From: an uncultured Coriobacteriaceae bacterium
Lineage (GTDB): Bacteria > Actinomycetota > Coriobacteriia > Coriobacteriales > Eggerthellaceae
Reading direction: 5' to 3'
NCBI GenBank assembly: GCA_902796815.1
Contig: CADBQL010000019.1
Location: forward strand, 1 to 25,286
DNA: 25,286 nucleotides
In this document: piece by piece, positions 18 through 17,808 of the stretch
Layout: each line of letters starts with the position of its first letter
Numbering within the stretch: the first letter of the stretch is position 1
Translations under genes and position numbers: made by a program
Notes under the pieces: generated by a model
What the model was told of the DNA's origin: nothing
The model's input: only the letters and a program-made list of their open reading frames with translations
The model's database searches: none

Positions 18-46
18 ATGAGTCTCGCCCCTGGGGCGCGACTCAT
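18..46. repeat. 29-bp palindromic intergenic repeat, copy 1
   Basis: atgagtctcgcccc-t-ggggcgcgactcat: 14-bp arms with one mismatch; matches copies at 989, 3857 and 9305. Confidence 0.85.
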
Positions 47-3856: not shown

Positions 3857-3885
3857 ATGAGTTATGCTCCCGAGGCGTGACTCAT
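3857..3885. repeat. 29-bp palindromic intergenic repeat, copy 3 (diverged)
   Basis: atgagttatgctcc-c-gaggcgtgactcat: 3 of 4 deviations from perfect pairing are T:G wobble-compatible. Confidence 0.75.
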
Positions 3886-9304: not shown

Positions 9305-9333
9305 ATGAGTCACGCCCCTGGGGCGTGACTCAT
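9305..9333. repeat. 29-bp palindromic intergenic repeat, copy 4
   Basis: atgagtcacgcccc-t-ggggcgtgactcat is a perfect palindrome, 19 nt upstream of the rnhA ATG. Confidence 0.85.
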
Positions 9334-13312: not shown

Positions 13313-14512
13313 TTACGACCCAATCCCGACCCCGATCCCGATTACCTGTCCAAAGTCAACCTTGTTTCTTCGGCGTTTCATCCTTGCGCTTCGGATGGCA
13401 GCATCCCCTGGGAGCAGTGACCAGATTAGTTCTTGTCGCATTTCTGTTAGCGTATGGTTTGCAATGGAGTGGCGTTGCGGCGAGAGGTCCCGATTGGCGA
13501 ACTGCTCGATAGCCGAAATCGCTTGGAGCATGACATTGTCGAGCGCACCGTATTCATACAGGTCTTCCTTGGTTACAGGGAAGATGATATACCCGTTTGC
13601 GGCGAGCTCGCGATTTCTGCGGATATCGTCTATTGCCTTGTTGCGCACTCGATGAACAGCATTTTTGAGAACGTCTTGGGCGACTTGGCTTTCGGGGTTC
13701 CGGCCAAGCTCAATTGCGGTGTCGGCGATAGACTCAAGGTCGAGATGACCGCCGCCATCGTAGTTGAAACCGATGTTAGTATCGGCAAGGAGTATGTCGG
13801 GGACGCGCGATTCCACGTGTGTTGTGCGTTTTAGTTCAGCGGGAGTGTATACGCGTTTGTTCATCAGGCAGGGAGAAAGCTCGTAGCCCAGCTGATGCAA
13901 AGGGAGATTTGCGAGCGCGGCAATGACCGATTCGGTTGGTGACCATGCGTTGTCCGCAATAAACTCGAGCGCCATGCGTGCAGACTTAGCCCCTCGGAGC
14001 CAATGCGTCTGATCGAGGAAAGCCCTGATGCGTTCAACGGTTGTGGCGGGGGCGATATCGAATGTGGCGTTGCCGCATCTGGGATCGGCCGCATCGCGCG
14101 AATACTCTCCGCAGAGCTCGAAACCGAGCAACAATAGCTCGGTGAGCGGAAGGACGTTTGCCATTTCTACAAACATGAGCTCAGGACTGCTCATAGCAAT
14201 TCCGTCATAAAGCTCAATAAACGCTCCTGCAGGGAGGCTTCTTTCATGCCCATAGACAGTGCTCTGAGCGCATTTGGAACGCAAACGGTCGCTGGCCCTG
14301 CTGACCGCGATATGTACATTGCGCTCCTCGAACGATGCGCCTGACACTTCGCTCACGATACGTTGCCACCTTTTAAGCGTCATGCGCTTAAAAGGACTCG
14401 AATCGGGCGGAACGAGGCTGCATCTACGGTGCCTGCGCATCTTGTGTTTGCTTTTGCAGCGTAAGGCACGCGTGATGAATAGCGCGGTTTGTTTTCCAAA
14501 AGTTACATTCAT
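13313..14512 (-). CDS. AbiEi-like/DUF559 (PD-(D/E)XK-fold) hypothetical protein of the type expanded in Actinobacteria (399 aa)
   Basis: SPELMFVEMA, RGAKSARMALEF...SPTES, RVPDILL....IGFNYDG..H and DIRRNRELAANGYIIFPVT match the pattern I recall for this family; start assumed at MNVTFGKQTAL. Confidence 0.65.
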   Translation of the reverse strand: MNVTFGKQTALFITRALRCKSKHKMRRHRRCSLVPPDSSPFKRMTLKRWQRIVSEVSGASFEERNVHIAVSRASDRLRSKCAQSTVYGHERSLPAGAFIELYDGIAMSSPELMFVEMANVLPLTELLLLGFELCGEYSRDAADPRCGNATFDIAPATTVERIRAFLDQTHWLRGAKSARMALEFIADNAWSPTESVIAALANLPLHQLGYELSPCLMNKRVYTPAELKRTTHVESRVPDILLADTNIGFNYDGGGHLDLESIADTAIELGRNPESQVAQDVLKNAVHRVRNKAIDDIRRNRELAANGYIIFPVTKEDLYEYGALDNVMLQAISAIEQFANRDLSPQRHSIANHTLTEMRQELIWSLLPGDAAIRSARMKRRRNKVDFGQVIGIGVGIGS

Positions 14513-14635
14513 ATTTAAATAATACAATTATTTAGATTCATACTTTGATGTAATTACAAATGCTATCCATTCTCCTTCGTATATTCATAATCCTTGCAGT
14601 TTCATTTTGTGTCGCTTTCCAAAATGTTGCAGCGA

Positions 14636-14720
14636 TGCAAAGAGCAGCCATTTTTTTGAAAGATGGCGGGTAACTCCAGGTCGAGTTTGGTGCAATGCAA
14701 AGAATGGCTAGTATTGCTGG
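14636..14720. repeat. ~85-bp inverted-repeat element, copy A
   Basis: gcag-ccattttt (14648-14655), 44 bp, aagaatgg-ctag-tattgctgg; core shares gggtaa and ccaggtcg with copy C. Confidence 0.55.
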
Positions 14721-14828
14721 TTAGTGGAGCAGAATTCGCATCAATCTGGTTTTGAATGCAATTGCGCAAATGTCCTAGCTCGTGATGCTCAGATCTTCGT
14801 AGGCGATCCTATTGAGAAATGAATCGTC

Positions 14829-14913
14829 CCAATTAGCAACCATTCTTCCAATTGACCGTCATAAAATCCCTTTTCGCTAAAAATGCGAAAGGAAAAATGG
14901 TTGCTATTACTGG
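14829..14913. repeat. ~85-bp inverted-repeat element, copy B
   Basis: ccaattagcaaccattcttcc ... ggaaaaatggttgctattactgg terminal IR; 45 bp between ccattctt and aaaaatgg. Confidence 0.65.
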
Positions 14914-14977
14914 AATTCAAAGAGCGCGATTGGGACGTGGGTGTTACAGGAAAGGATATGCCGCGAGCGTTGCTGGA

Positions 14978-15052
14978 GCGGAGCGGGCCGACTCGTTGGC
15001 GGGGCGGGCCGACTCGTGGGGCGGAGCGGGCCGACTCGTTGGCGGAGCGAGC
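14978..15052 (+). repeat. ~3.5 x 21-22 bp tandem direct repeat
   Basis: gcggagcgggccgactcgttg at 14978, 14999 (variant), 15021 and partial at 15042. Confidence 0.85.
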
Positions 15053-15152
15053 AGATGCGAAAGCCAAGCGCGAGAGAGGCGCGGGCGTTGAGGAAAAGGG
15101 AATAGCGCTTTTGGTTCTGCAATTTGCGCATGTACTCACCGATGTGTATTTC

Positions 15153-15344
15153 AGTCCAGAATCCGAGGCTCGCACCAGCCCAGAATCCGATGCGCGTCCC
15201 GACCCGGGGTGCGCGGTTCGCTTCAGCTCGGAATCCGATGCATGATCCAGCCTGCGATCCGAGACGCGTTCCCATTTGGGATTCGCGGCGCGCCCCGACC
15301 CGGGATTCGCGGCGCGCCCCAGCCCGAGATTCGCGGCGCGCCGT
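15153..15344 (+). repeat. 8 x 24-bp degenerate tandem repeat (minisatellite)
   Basis: Units start every 24 bp from 15153, e.g. agcccagaatccgatgcgcgtccc, gacccgggattcgcggcgcgcccc, agcccgagattcgcggcgcgccgt. Confidence 0.8.
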
Positions 15345-15470
15345 AAATCATGCGTGCAGAAACGTAAAACTCATCGGAGACGGACCGTGACAACAGGCCT
15401 ATCGGTTATGTGTGGTAGCACATGATACGATGTCCATGCGATGTACCCGTGAATCCTGAAAGAGGTTGCA

Positions 15471-17636
15471 GTGGCAAAGCAAGCGATTGTCGGACTCGTT
15501 GCGCATGTTGACGCGGGAAAAACCACCCTGGCTGAGGCCATGCTGTTCAACGCGGGGGCGATTAGGTCGATGGGTAGGGTCGACAAGGCGGATTCCCATC
15601 TTGATACCCATGCCATCGAGAAAACGCGTGGTATAACCATATTTACAGGGCAAGCCCATTTCATCTGGAAAAACCTTCACGTAGACGTGCTCGACGCGCC
15701 AGGACATGTTGACTTTTCGGCTGAGGCGGAGCGCACGATTCGCGCGCTTGACTACGCAATCCTCGTTATCGATGGAAACGATGGCGTGCAAACTCACACG
15801 CTGACTATGTGGCGCTTGTTGGAGCGGTATCATGTGCCCTGCTTCATATTCTTCAACAAAATGGACCTTGCGGTGAACGGTCGAGACGAGCTCCTTTTGC
15901 AAGTTGTCAATCGGTTTGGGAATGGATGCTTTGATGCGGCGCGATTAAACGCCCCCGAGATTCAGGAAGAGCTCGCGTCGATTGACGAACGAGCGATTGA
16001 GGAGTTTTTAACCCAAGAGGTGCTCAGCGTTTCGACGCTGAAACGGTTGGTGGCCGAGCGCAAGGCTCACCCCTGCTATTTCGGGTCTGCGCTCAAGAAT
16101 GAGGGGATAGCAGAGCTGCTCGATGGTCTCGTATGTTACGTTGCTGAATCGTCTGATTGCAGGCGTGCGGGTGGCGTTGCGGGTTTCGTATACCGAATTA
16201 ATCGCGATGTACGCGGCGATCGATTGTGCCATATAAAGCTAACGAGTGGAACGTTGAGACCAAAACAATTGGTCAAGGGTTTTTCCAAAAGAGGTGTTTG
16301 GGAAGAAAAAGTCGATCAAATACGCCTGTACTCGGGAGACAGGTTCGAGGCTATATCGGAGGTGGCGGCGGGTAGGGTGTGTGCTGTTACGGGGTTCTCG
16401 GTTGCCGGCATAGGCGATGTTCTCGGGGATGTTTTTGGCAATGCTTTCGGCGACGCCCCCGGTGGCGGCTTCGGATACGCTTTCGGCAACGCCTCTGGCG
16501 ACGTCCCCGGTGGCGGCTTCGGCAACGCCTCTGGCAACGCCCCCGGTGGCGGCTTCGGCAACGCTTTTGGCGACGCACGCGAAATGATGCCTATGCAGCA
16601 GTCCTCGGCGATAACCCCCGTAATGGCTTATAGCGTTTTACCAGGTAATCACGATGTACATACAGTGTATGCGGCATTAAGCGAGCTGGCAGAGGAAGAC
16701 CCGATGCTTGGCCTTGCCTGGGACGAGCGGCTTCAAGAAATACGCGTGATGATTATGGGGCGCATCCAGCTCGAAGTACTGCAGCAAACCATGGCCGAAC
16801 GGTTTGGGCTTACTGTAGGGTTCGGTGCTGGAGGCGTGCTTTACAAGGAAACGATTGCGGCGCCTGTGCGGGGCGTAGGTCATTTTGAACCATTGCGCCA
16901 TTACGCAGAGGTGCAGCTCATCATCGAGCCTGGAAAGCGGGGTTCGGGTGTGGTTTTTGGCACGCGTGCGAACTTGGATGATCTCGATTTGAATTGGCAG
17001 CGCCTGATACTTACGAACGCGATGGAGCGTGAGCATGTCGGAGTGCTTGTTGGTGCGCCGCTTACAGACGTGCGGATCACGCTGCTCGGCGGGCGCGCGC
17101 ACGCCAAGCACACGGAAGGTGGCGATTTTAGGCAGGCTACGTACCGCGCGATTCGTCAGGGTCTCATGAGCGCTCAAAGCGTGCTGCTCGAACCGTGGTA
17201 CCACTTTGAACTCGAAATACCAGCTGAGCGGGTTGGCCGCGCCCTTGGGGATTTGCACCGCATGGGCGCAAGGTTTAACCCTCCCGATACGTCTGGCATG
17301 GCCGCTCGGCTTGCAGGCGAGGTCCCTGCATCAGAGGTTGGTGATTATGCTGCCGAAGTGGCGGGTTACACGAGTGGCGCAGGCAGCCTGTCGCTCGAGT
17401 TTGGCGGATATGCCCCCTGCCATAATGCTGACAAAATCATCGCTGACAGGGCGTACAATCCCGAAGCCGACCTTCCAAATACACCTGACTCGGTTTTCTG
17501 CTCGCATGGCGCAGGTTTTACGGTGAAATGGGGCGAAGTGCCCTCGCATGCGCATGTCTCGATAGACGAATCGCGTTTACGTCCCTGGCGAGCTGCTGAT
17601 TCGTCGTTTTTTGCGAACGGGCATACGGCATTCTAG
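15471..17636 (+). CDS. EF-G-like translational GTPase of the TetM/TetW-related family (721 aa)
   Basis: GAGG RBS, GTG start; AHVDAGKTT, RGITI, DAPGH, NKMD; domain IV GVGHFEPLRHYAEV, HAKHTEGGDFRQAT; C-terminal NTPDSVFCSHGAG. Confidence 0.85.
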   Translation: MAKQAIVGLVAHVDAGKTTLAEAMLFNAGAIRSMGRVDKADSHLDTHAIEKTRGITIFTGQAHFIWKNLHVDVLDAPGHVDFSAEAERTIRALDYAILVIDGNDGVQTHTLTMWRLLERYHVPCFIFFNKMDLAVNGRDELLLQVVNRFGNGCFDAARLNAPEIQEELASIDERAIEEFLTQEVLSVSTLKRLVAERKAHPCYFGSALKNEGIAELLDGLVCYVAESSDCRRAGGVAGFVYRINRDVRGDRLCHIKLTSGTLRPKQLVKGFSKRGVWEEKVDQIRLYSGDRFEAISEVAAGRVCAVTGFSVAGIGDVLGDVFGNAFGDAPGGGFGYAFGNASGDVPGGGFGNASGNAPGGGFGNAFGDAREMMPMQQSSAITPVMAYSVLPGNHDVHTVYAALSELAEEDPMLGLAWDERLQEIRVMIMGRIQLEVLQQTMAERFGLTVGFGAGGVLYKETIAAPVRGVGHFEPLRHYAEVQLIIEPGKRGSGVVFGTRANLDDLDLNWQRLILTNAMEREHVGVLVGAPLTDVRITLLGGRAHAKHTEGGDFRQATYRAIRQGLMSAQSVLLEPWYHFELEIPAERVGRALGDLHRMGARFNPPDTSGMAARLAGEVPASEVGDYAAEVAGYTSGAGSLSLEFGGYAPCHNADKIIADRAYNPEADLPNTPDSVFCSHGAGFTVKWGEVPSHAHVSIDESRLRPWRAADSSFFANGHTAF
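16413..16580 (+). repeat. 14 x 12-bp in-frame repeat encoding G-x-x-(F/S/P) tetrapeptides
   Basis: GDVL GDVF GNAF GDAP GGGF GYAF GNAS GDVP GGGF GNAS GNAP GGGF GNAF GDAR. Confidence 0.9.
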
Positions 17637-17652
17637 GAATAAGCTGCACTGC

Positions 17653-17677
17653 GCATTGCTTTTGCAATGCCGTTTGC
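17653..17677 (+). terminator. probable terminator after the GTPase gene
   Basis: gcattgc-tttt-gcaatgc followed by cgtttgc; weak U tract. Confidence 0.5.
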
Positions 17678-17721
17678 TTGGGAAAACCTCATGGCTTTTC
17701 TCATAGCCTAGCTAGTGCTCA

Positions 17722-17808
17722 TAACTAATACTTGCCATTTTTCGTAAAGTTAGGGTAAATGCCCAGGTCGTTTTTTTCCATGGGCAAAAAATGGTTGCTA
17801 TTAACTGG
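17722..17808. repeat. ~85-bp inverted-repeat element, copy C
   Basis: taatacttg-ccattttt (17735-17742), 44 bp, aaaaatggttgctatta (17787-17803, identical to 14893-14909), then actgg. Confidence 0.65.

What the first reader, a model, noticed from the sequence alone, without database searches (positions are those of the whole stretch)
14636..17808. Three copies of an ~85-bp inverted-repeat element with fixed 44-45 bp spacer, next to the AbiEi/DUF559-like gene and bracketing the TetM-like gene
Seen: the architecture A(A/T)(T/G)A-N4-CCATTYTT-[44-45 bp]-AARAATGG-N4-TATT-(R/AA)CTGG occurs at 14636-14720, 14829-14913 and 17722-17808. Copies B and C share an exact 17-mer, aaaaatggttgctatta. Copies A and C share ccaggtcg exactly 28 bp from the left CCATT, plus a nearby gggtaa. 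The conserved spacing despite a diverged core suggests geometric constraint. Inference: MITE-like non-autonomous elements, paired binding sites for an oligomeric protein (res/att-like), or a structured RNA. B and C flank a 2.9-kb segment with the GTPase gene, as cassette boundaries would, and A and B lie upstream of a nuclease-fold gene. This could be an undescribed repeat-plus-protein system analogous to REP/RAYT.
Basis: partly seen in the sequence, partly recalled or inferred. Interest (0 to 1): 0.66.

Follow-up and report, generated by a model that had tools for sequence, protein, structure and literature searches.

The report
Hairpin repeats tied to nuclease gene
The three inverted-repeat copies are real members of a large, apparently undescribed family of hairpin-forming DNA repeats found across Eggerthellaceae gut bacteria, and these repeats typically flank copies of a multi-copy nuclease gene like the one next to them here, so gene and repeats probably form a selfish, possibly mobile, unit.

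Summary
Copies A (14636-14720), B (14829-14913) and C (17722-17808) exist as described. The strict pattern occurs 3 times in this genome and once in 100 related genomes.

They are not a local oddity. This incomplete genome (Eggerthellaceae, bovine gut) holds at least 24 such intergenic elements of six arm types. All have covarying inverted arms around a conserved centre, T-rich-GCGACCTGGG-A-rich. That centre occurs 410 times in 151 Eggerthellaceae genomes against 9 for a reversed control, and is near background in other Coriobacteriia families.

The neighbouring gene (13313-14512, minus strand, 399 aa) has an AbiEi-like N-terminal part and a Vsr/DUF559-like nuclease domain. It belongs to a family with up to 12 or more copies per genome. 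In 12 of 13 loci of its close relatives, and about 14 of 20 distant ones, the gene is flanked by these hairpins. The flanks are usually on both sides and share the same arms, while genomic contexts differ.

A is therefore the 5' hairpin of this gene copy. B and C are solo copies of the same arm type.

A strand-specific RNA role and a TetM-like cassette role are not supported. The mechanism, with the nuclease acting on its own hairpins, is inferred. No mobility event was seen.

Another first-reader note on this window describes a different, far more abundant repeat family.

The parts
14636..14720 (-). Copy A: hairpin element of arm type I. It is the 5' flanking hairpin of the nuclease gene, 123 bp upstream of its ATG, with the centre on the gene's strand.
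   Evidence: (nhmmer E 1e-14)
14676..14683 (-). Conserved centre of A; reads CGACCTGG on the minus strand.
14829..14913 (.). Copy B: solo hairpin of arm type I with the best-paired arms (TAGCAACCATTCTTCC / GGAAAAATGGTTGCTA). The centre is replaced or degenerate, and the spacer holds a small hairpin of its own (CCTTTTCGC..GCGAAAGG).
   Evidence: (I5)
17722..17808 (-). Copy C: solo hairpin of arm type I, between the TetM-like gene and the next gene.
17762..17770 (-). Conserved centre of C; reads CGACCTGGG on the minus strand.
13313..14512 (-). Partner gene, 399 aa: AbiEi-like N-terminal part plus a Vsr/DUF559-like PD-(D/E)xK nuclease domain. The start is set by alignment to homologues; the open frame runs up to a TTG at 14527.
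15471..17636 (+). TetM-like translational GTPase bracketed by B and C. Judged a bystander, not cargo of the repeats.

Best explanation
A, B and C are copies of a family of intergenic, hairpin-forming (palindromic) DNA repeats that has multiplied in Eggerthellaceae.

Each element has two inverted arms that change together between copies. The arm consensus is roughly AATAGTGTACATTTTTT ... AAAAAATGTACACTAAT, with an invariant C:G pair. The arms enclose an asymmetric centre, T-rich-GCGACCTGGG-A-rich.

The repeats are the cognate repeats of a multi-copy gene family encoding an AbiEi-like plus Vsr/DUF559-like nuclease. The full unit is hairpin-gene-hairpin, with the same arms at both ends. Solo hairpins are gene-less copies, either non-autonomous copies or what remains after the gene is lost by recombination between its two flanks. 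In the window, A is the 5' hairpin of the gene at 13313-14512, and B and C are solo copies of the same arm type.

Shown: the family, its covariation, its taxonomic range, the gene-repeat linkage, and the fold of the protein.

Inferred: the protein binds the arms and cuts at or near the centre (which contains CCTGG). This would drive the spread or maintenance of the unit by homing-like repair or transposition, on DNA rather than RNA.
For: Family in this genome: 24 elements, all intergenic, in six arm types sharing the centre. GACCTGG flanked by strong inverted repeats occurs 14 times, against 0-2 for five control words.

Covariation: in alignment A4 of 19 hairpins, 16 of 17 arm pairs show changes on both sides. 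92% of cells pair against 66% in shuffles (0 of 500 shuffles reach it). The covariation score is 0.64 against 0.20, and about 0.1 for slid controls. Twenty sites in G092 chosen by the centre alone all sit between inverted repeats.

Range: the centre motif gives 410 hits against 9 control hits in 151 family genomes, up to 42 per genome, and 74 against 0 in G092 with a looser pattern. It is near background in other Coriobacteriia families.

Linkage: hairpins with matching arms flank the gene in C2 of this genome and in L025-L028, L030, L035, L036, L096 and L097; one side only in the window and L098. Distant homologues are flanked too. Background for inverted repeats on both sides of a gene in this genome is 3%. 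The gene sits in different housekeeping contexts in different genomes. Its stop codon lies inside the 3' hairpin arm in several loci. The two paralogues in this genome each have their own arm type, with solo copies of that type elsewhere.

Protein: model pLDDT 90.8; fold matches to Vsr, I-Bth0305I, DUF559 and AbiEi; invariant PD, YDG..H and DD.RRNR motifs across 62 homologues. The family is found in 106 of 151 genomes with up to 12 or more copies. All 36 genomes with 3 or more centre motifs carry it.

DNA rather than RNA.
Against: No mobility event was seen. There are no target-site duplications by eye and no clean empty site. The one gene-less allele (L068, L071) is a decayed copy, not an unoccupied site. 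One solo copy is fixed in five other strains.

The orientation of the centre relative to the gene is not fixed: same strand in L027 and the window, opposite in C2, mixed in L096.

The window's own gene has no recognisable 3' hairpin. Four distant paralogues in this genome have none. In G016 one arm type occurs only at the gene.

Vsr-like nucleases are not known to act as transposases. Fold scores of Z about 8 are borderline by the tool's own note.

Many genomes with the protein family lack the exact centre motif. Related genomes are not independent samples.
Confidence: 0.55

Rival explanations
1. The hairpins are an independent MITE- or REP-like family moved by some other enzyme. The nuclease gene is found beside them only because it preferentially lands in or next to them (for example a free-standing homing nuclease that targets the repeat), or because both collect in the same permissive intergenic spots.
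For: Solo copies far outnumber gene-linked ones: 20 of 20 sampled G092 sites have no family gene within 1 kb. The orientation of the centre relative to the gene varies. Several arm types here have no partner gene in the assembly. A Y1 transposase gene exists in this genome.
Against: The arms are the same at both ends of one gene and differ between paralogues. The stop codon is embedded in the 3' arm. The RAYT-like gene is flanked by the other repeat family. No DDE or Y1 partner sharing these arms was found.
Confidence: 0.2
2. The arms are operator half-sites. The AbiEi-like protein binds them as a repressor to control its own promoter, and solo copies are further regulated sites or decoys.
For: AbiEi antitoxins autoregulate by binding inverted repeats in their promoters (PMC7319586, abstract seen). 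The 5' hairpin ends 26-123 bp before the start codon. Arm type follows the paralogue.
Against: Hairpins also lie at the 3' end. Palindromes reach 57-bp arms. Spacer length varies from 13 to 130 nt. Solo copies sit between convergent genes. The fold match covers AbiEi's C-terminal domain, not clearly its winged helix. No AbiEii partner gene is present. The nuclease motifs are invariant.
Confidence: 0.15
3. The elements act as structured RNA: a small RNA, a stabiliser in untranslated regions, or a terminator.
For: Strong predicted hairpins. Type II copies are followed by a short GC hairpin and a T run. Covarying stems with a conserved loop are typical of RNAs.
Against: There is no orientation bias towards flanking genes: 9 same and 8 opposite on the 5' side, 8 and 11 on the 3' side. 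G.T and A.C mismatches are equal at 22 and 23. No Rfam family matches, even at a permissive threshold.
Confidence: 0.06
4. B and C are recombination or cassette boundaries that move or excise the TetM-like gene.
For: B and C share arms and an exact 17-mer in direct orientation, 2.9 kb apart.
Against: Seven orthologous loci in relatives lack such flanks. The window encodes no recombinase. No joints appeared in public runs, but only short contigs were available. attC core sites are absent.
Confidence: 0.03

Closest known systems
REP elements with their RAYT (Y1/HUH) transposase
   Same: Many intergenic palindromic repeats per genome; a dedicated protein gene flanked by its own repeats; no obvious target duplications; several repeat types per genome.
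   Different: The partner is a PD-(D/E)xK (Vsr/DUF559-like) protein, not a Y1 HUH enzyme. Elements are 75-190 bp rather than 20-40 nt. The conserved part is the centre, not a 5' GTAG foot. This genome has a separate REP family (ATGAGT..GCCCCWGGGGC..ACTCAT, about 500 copies) that flanks its RAYT-like gene.
MITEs and their parent insertion sequences
   Same: Short non-coding elements with terminal inverted repeats. A longer gene-bearing form is bounded by the same outer repeats.
   Different: No target-site duplication was seen and there is no DDE transposase. The gene-bearing form carries two complete hairpins rather than one split element. The arms vary while the centre is conserved, the reverse of most MITEs.
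I-Bth0305I, a Vsr-like (EDxHD) homing endonuclease (PMC3239194)
   Same: Multidomain nuclease with a Vsr-like catalytic fold (3r3p, Z 7.9). That enzyme is a homodimer that footprints about 60 bp, with highest specificity at a central pseudopalindrome (abstract), much like arms plus centre here.
   Different: The gene is free-standing in a bacterial chromosome, not inside a phage group I intron. The motif is NYDGxxHLD, not EDxHD. There is an AbiEi-like N-terminal part. No cleavage has been shown.
AbiEi antitoxins and their inverted-repeat operators (PMC7319586)
   Same: Fold similarity of residues 1-186 to AbiEi (6y8q, Z 7.9) and Rv2827c; inverted repeats just upstream of the gene.
   Different: There is no AbiEii toxin partner. 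The protein is fused to a nuclease. Repeats also occur at the 3' end and as dozens of solo copies.
IS200/IS605 family ends
   Same: Hairpins at both ends of a one-gene unit, no terminal duplications, possible action on single strands.
   Different: There is no TnpA or TnpB (no Pfam match). Only a weak leading-strand bias was found, 67 of 103.

Membership tests
REP/RAYT | Partner gene is a Y1 (HUH) tyrosine transposase flanked by the same repeats | tested here: not met
   The single PF01797 match (C318; L024:1429-2226) is flanked by ATGAGT..GCCCCWGGGGC..ACTCAT repeats, not by these hairpins. The hairpins' partner has no Y1 domain.
REP/RAYT | Short (about 20-40 nt) imperfect palindromes with a conserved 5' tetranucleotide | tested here: not met
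   Elements are 75-190 bp and the conserved part is central, GCGACCTGGG.
MITE | Terminal inverted repeats; small, non-coding, multi-copy | tested here: met
MITE | Target-site duplication at the ends | tested here: inconclusive
   None was seen by eye in aligned flanks of type II and type V copies. No systematic test was run and no empty site was found.
MITE | Parent element with a transposase sharing the terminal repeats | tested here: inconclusive
   A gene-bearing form with the same arms exists, but its protein is not a known transposase type.
IS200/IS605 | TnpA (Y1) and/or TnpB gene between subterminal hairpins | tested here: not met
   No Pfam, NCBIfam, PHROG or PADLOC family for the partner gene. 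The fold is Vsr/DUF559-like.
Integron attC / gene cassette | R''/R' core sites (RYYYAAC / GTTRRRY), cassettes in an array next to an IntI integrase | tested here: not met
   The arms read TAGCAACCATT / AATGGTTGCTA. No integrase is among the window's genes. Copies are dispersed among housekeeping genes.
AbiE (type IV toxin-antitoxin) operator | AbiEi gene in an operon with an AbiEii (DUF1814) nucleotidyltransferase, inverted repeats in the promoter | tested here: not met
   Neighbouring genes in four loci are unrelated housekeeping genes. Inverted repeats upstream are present.
EDxHD homing endonucleases | EDxHD catalytic motif; gene inside a group I intron or intein | tested here: not met
   The conserved motif is NYDG..H.D. 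The gene is free-standing and intergenic-flanked. The shared Vsr-like fold scores only Z 7.9.
DUF559 / Vsr-like PD-(D/E)xK superfamily (protein) | Vsr-like nuclease fold with conserved acidic and histidine residues | tested here: met
   1cw0 Z 8.0, 3hrl Z 7.7. AlphaFold DB clusters are named DUF559. The distant member L038 reaches PF04480 at 25.6 bits against a cut-off of 20.6. Invariant D239, D252 and H256.
Any Rfam RNA family | Match to a curated covariance model | tested here: not met
   Only a tRNA in the window. Nothing credible at E up to 1 on seven example loci.

The most novel reading that the evidence does not exclude
These units are a new class of prokaryotic selfish element. A Vsr/DUF559-like PD-(D/E)xK nuclease with an AbiEi-like DNA-binding part recognises hairpin or cruciform repeats by their covarying arms and cuts at the conserved CGACCTGGG centre. 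It thereby copies or moves hairpin-gene-hairpin units and leaves solo hairpins behind. This would give a function to at least the Eggerthellaceae members of the widespread AbiEi/DUF559-type genes.
Probability: 0.3. Interest if true: 0.85.

Novelty: new variant of a known kind. Interest (0 to 1): 0.72.

Why it matters
DUF559 and AbiEi-like genes are common in bacterial genomes and are multi-copy here, yet I found no assigned role for this architecture. No paper in the searchable library holds both terms, and none links DUF559 to flanking repeats.

The data give a concrete, testable link: each gene copy carries its own pair of hairpins, and dozens of gene-less hairpins with the same conserved centre are scattered through the genomes of a whole family of gut bacteria.

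If the nuclease acts on them, this would be a repeat-plus-enzyme system built on a different catalytic fold from REP/RAYT or IS200/IS605. It could also be a source of sequence- and structure-specific nucleases.

In practice, the repeats explain part of the fragmentation of Eggerthellaceae metagenome assemblies. Annotation pipelines should not read them as RNA genes or cassette sites.

Tried and rejected
1. Rfam at gathering and at permissive thresholds found nothing.

2. Promoter readings, sigma-70 and sigma-54, done by eye only: spacing and hexamers do not fit consistently, so I dropped them.

3. Integron attC: no core sites and no integrase.

4. Public sequencing runs: the species is rare, only 150-350-bp contigs were laid, and there were no joints. 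This says nothing about excision.

5. Exact-protein look-ups of the TetM-like and the 492-aa proteins: not on record.

6. Empty-site search at the arginine deiminase / ornithine carbamoyltransferase locus: the gene-less allele is a decayed copy with three gene fragments. Its differences begin inside the outer arm of the 5' hairpin and end just after the 3' hairpin. This is suggestive of unit boundaries but is not an empty site.

7. The solo copy beside the homoserine O-succinyltransferase-like gene is identical in spacing in five other strains, so there is no polymorphism.

8. Plasmid and phage collections: no homologue of the protein.

9. Foldseek against solved structures gave nothing for the whole two-domain model. 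The exhaustive aligner gave the domain matches.

10. Replication-strand bias: the centre is on the leading strand in 48 of 74 sites in G092 and in 67 of 103 over five complete genomes. For the four other genomes the terminus was taken as opposite dnaA. This is weak and could follow from gene orientation.

11. The simple count 'any inverted repeat near the gene' is a poor test in this genome: 34% of genes have one within 400 bp because of the other repeat family. The both-sides, same-arm and shared-centre criteria carry the argument instead.
Full report
**Observation.** The window is contig C19 of a 2.34-Mb, 476-contig, 70%-complete metagenome genome with 57% G+C. Source names of homologous proteins place it in Eggerthellaceae, and public runs holding it are bovine and other gut samples.

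B and C share the exact 17-mer, B's arms are 94% complementary, and A and C share CCAGGTCG at the same offset. The strict pattern occurs three times in this genome, all here. It occurs once in 100 other genomes of the family, against six for the backward control.

**More copies.** A profile of the copies finds two more of the same arm type on contigs C36 and C435. It also finds a second type with different arms, TAGTGTACATATTTT / AAAATATGTACACTA, but the same centre, GCGACCTGGGCAAA.

Anchoring on GACCTGG and asking for flanking inverted repeats gives 14 strong cases, against 0-2 for five control words. A genome-wide inverted-repeat scan adds further members. I curated 24 elements in six arm types. 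All are intergenic in a genome that is 83% coding by my rough gene calls.

Within types there are compensatory differences, and some copies are near-perfect palindromes of more than 110 bp. The centre sits at the top of the predicted hairpin in every type.

**Covariation.** In an alignment of 19 hairpins from this genome and six others, 16 of 17 arm pairs show changes on both sides. 92% of cells pair against 66% in shuffles, with none of 500 shuffles reaching the observed value. The covariation score is 0.64 against 0.20, and about 0.1 when partners are slid. One C:G pair is invariant.

These sequences were partly picked by their inverted repeats. As an unbiased check, I took 20 sites in another genome (G092) chosen by the centre motif alone. 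All 20 lie between inverted repeats, which fall into several different arm types.

**Range.** The motif WWWNNCGACCTGGGNWWW occurs 410 times in 151 Eggerthellaceae genomes against 9 for the reversed control, with up to 42 in one genome. With a looser pattern G092 has 74 hits against none. In 175 genomes of other Coriobacteriia families it is close to background.

**DNA or RNA.** Orientation of the centre relative to neighbouring genes is random: 9 same and 8 opposite on the 5' side, 8 and 11 on the 3' side. Mismatches in the arms are as often A.C as G.T, 23 and 22, which a strand-specific RNA would not give. Rfam has nothing. I therefore read the elements as acting at the DNA level.

In G092, dnaA and sampled GC skew place the origin near 2.29 Mb and the terminus near 0.6 Mb. 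The centre reads CGACCTGGG on the leading strand in 48 of 74 sites there, and in 67 of 103 over five complete genomes. This bias is weak and I do not build on it.

**The neighbouring gene.** The open frame 13313-14527 (minus strand) has no Pfam, NCBIfam, PADLOC or meaningful PHROG match. It has more than 280 homologues, and alignment puts the start at 14512.

A confident model (pLDDT 90.8) matches AlphaFold DB clusters named DUF559 and AbiEi. In an exhaustive comparison with solved chains its best matches are Vsr (Z 8.0), the Vsr-like homing endonuclease I-Bth0305I (7.9), AbiEi (7.9, residues 1-186) and a DUF559 protein (7.7). The tool notes that Z about 8 alone is borderline, but the four top matches agree with each other and with the cluster names. 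A distant family member also reaches Pfam DUF559.

PD, YDG..H and DD.RRNR motifs are invariant in 62 homologues. Residues 21-100 and the C-terminal tail are the most variable parts. The superfamily is present in 106 of 151 family genomes, with up to 12 or more copies, and has six members here.

**Linkage.** In homologue loci fetched from public assemblies, the gene sits in unrelated housekeeping contexts: after prolyl-tRNA synthetase, between arginine deiminase and ornithine carbamoyltransferase, next to a methyltransferase repair gene, and next to a nitroreductase gene. In each it is flanked within about 150 bp by hairpins of this architecture. The arms are the same at both ends of one gene and differ between loci.

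The same holds for the paralogue on C2 of this genome, which has type III arms on both sides. It also holds for further genomes. In several loci the stop codon lies inside the left arm of the 3' hairpin.

The tally for the close, roughly 400-aa subfamily is 12 of 13 loci with at least one hairpin and 9-10 with both. Once spacers up to 140 nt are allowed, about 14 of 20 loci of distant, roughly 330-aa relatives have a strong flanking palindrome, often with a CGACC(T/A)GG centre.

As background, 34% of genes in this repeat-rich genome have some inverted repeat nearby, but only 3% have one on both sides. All 36 genomes with three or more centre motifs carry the protein family, although related genomes are not independent samples.

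**Reading of the window.** A, 123 bp upstream of the gene and with its centre on the gene's strand, is the gene's 5' hairpin. I found no 3' hairpin. B and C are solo copies of the same arm type, and further type I solos lie on C36 and C435.

The TetM-like gene between B and C looks like a bystander, because its orthologues in seven relatives have no such flanks.

**Mechanism (inferred).** The pattern is matching arms at both ends of each gene copy, arm types that follow paralogues, a centre conserved across genera, invariant nuclease motifs, many gene-less copies and varied genomic contexts. This is what a selfish gene with cognate repeats would give.

I-Bth0305I offers a physical precedent. 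It is a homodimer that footprints about 60 bp, with highest specificity at a central pseudopalindrome (PMC3239194). However, spacer lengths from 13 to 130 nt and very long perfect palindromes fit recognition of a folded hairpin or cruciform better than a rigid duplex site.

A homing-like route is possible. A cut in a solo hairpin would be repaired from a hairpin-gene-hairpin donor, giving a gene between two full hairpins. Recombination between the flanks would return a solo copy. None of this was observed.

**Weaknesses.** There are no target duplications, no clean empty site and no polymorphic copy. The orientation of the centre relative to the gene varies. Some family genes lack hairpins and some arm types lack a gene.

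The main rivals are an independent repeat family that the gene merely associates with, and autoregulatory operators of an AbiEi-like repressor (PMC7319586).

**Relation to the other repeat family.** This genome also holds about 500 copies of a 29-bp palindrome, ATGAGT..GCCCCWGGGGC..ACTCAT. These flank its only Y1-transposase (RAYT-like) gene. That is the classical REP/RAYT pair and is the subject of another first-reader note on this window (e1-5302137). It is distinct from the elements studied here.

Noticed in passing
window 18-46, 989-1017, 3857-3885, 9305-9333; L024:600-700, 1200-1380, 2250-2310: A separate, very abundant 29-bp palindrome, ATGAGTnnnGCCCCWGGGGCnnnACTCAT, gives about 1075 strand-hits on 195 contigs. 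It flanks the genome's only Y1-transposase (RAYT-like) gene, 265 aa at L024:1429-2226. This looks like a classical REP/RAYT pair.
   Followed up: partly
window 14974-15055 and 15152-15350: GC-rich tandem repeats lie in the 940-bp divergent intergenic region between B and the TetM-like gene. One array has a period of about 21-22 bp (GGAGCGGGCCGACTCGTTGGCG) and the other a period of 24 bp (CAGNCCAGAATCCGA...). They are unexplained.
   Followed up: no
window 16401-16576: The TetM-like GTPase carries a 12/36-bp periodic Gly/Phe-rich insertion. The protein scores 380 bits on the NCBIfam ribosomal-protection model, against a cut-off of 775.
   Followed up: no
L023:1955-2030 (contig C2): Four tandem copies of about 18 bp (CCATCCATTGCCAAAAAA) lie just upstream of the 5' hairpin of the paralogous nuclease gene. 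The CCATTGCCAAAA unit resembles the inner half of type I arms.
   Followed up: no
L019:2265-2425, L020:640-800, L021:2700-2870, L022:845-1005: Type II copies are part of a longer unit of about 165 bp with outer inverted ends, GTCYAAAWAA ... TTTTTTAGAC, and a GC hairpin plus T run after the main hairpin. Type V copies end in the same TTTTTTAGACG-like motif.
   Followed up: partly
L068:3102-3500 versus L066:1913-3500: Between arginine deiminase and ornithine carbamoyltransferase, some strains have hairpin-gene-hairpin. Others have 399 bp holding three short fragments of the gene and no hairpins. The two alleles diverge inside the outer arm of the 5' hairpin and re-join just after the 3' hairpin.
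   Followed up: partly
G092 whole chromosome: The centre reads CGACCTGGG on the leading strand in 21 of 26 sites on one replichore and 27 of 48 on the other. Over five complete genomes the count is 67 of 103. The bias is weak.
   Followed up: partly
L026:5181-5257, L028:5194-5285, L030:721-797: The stop codon of the nuclease gene lies inside the left arm of its 3' hairpin (for example TGATAACG...), so gene and hairpin overlap.
   Followed up: no
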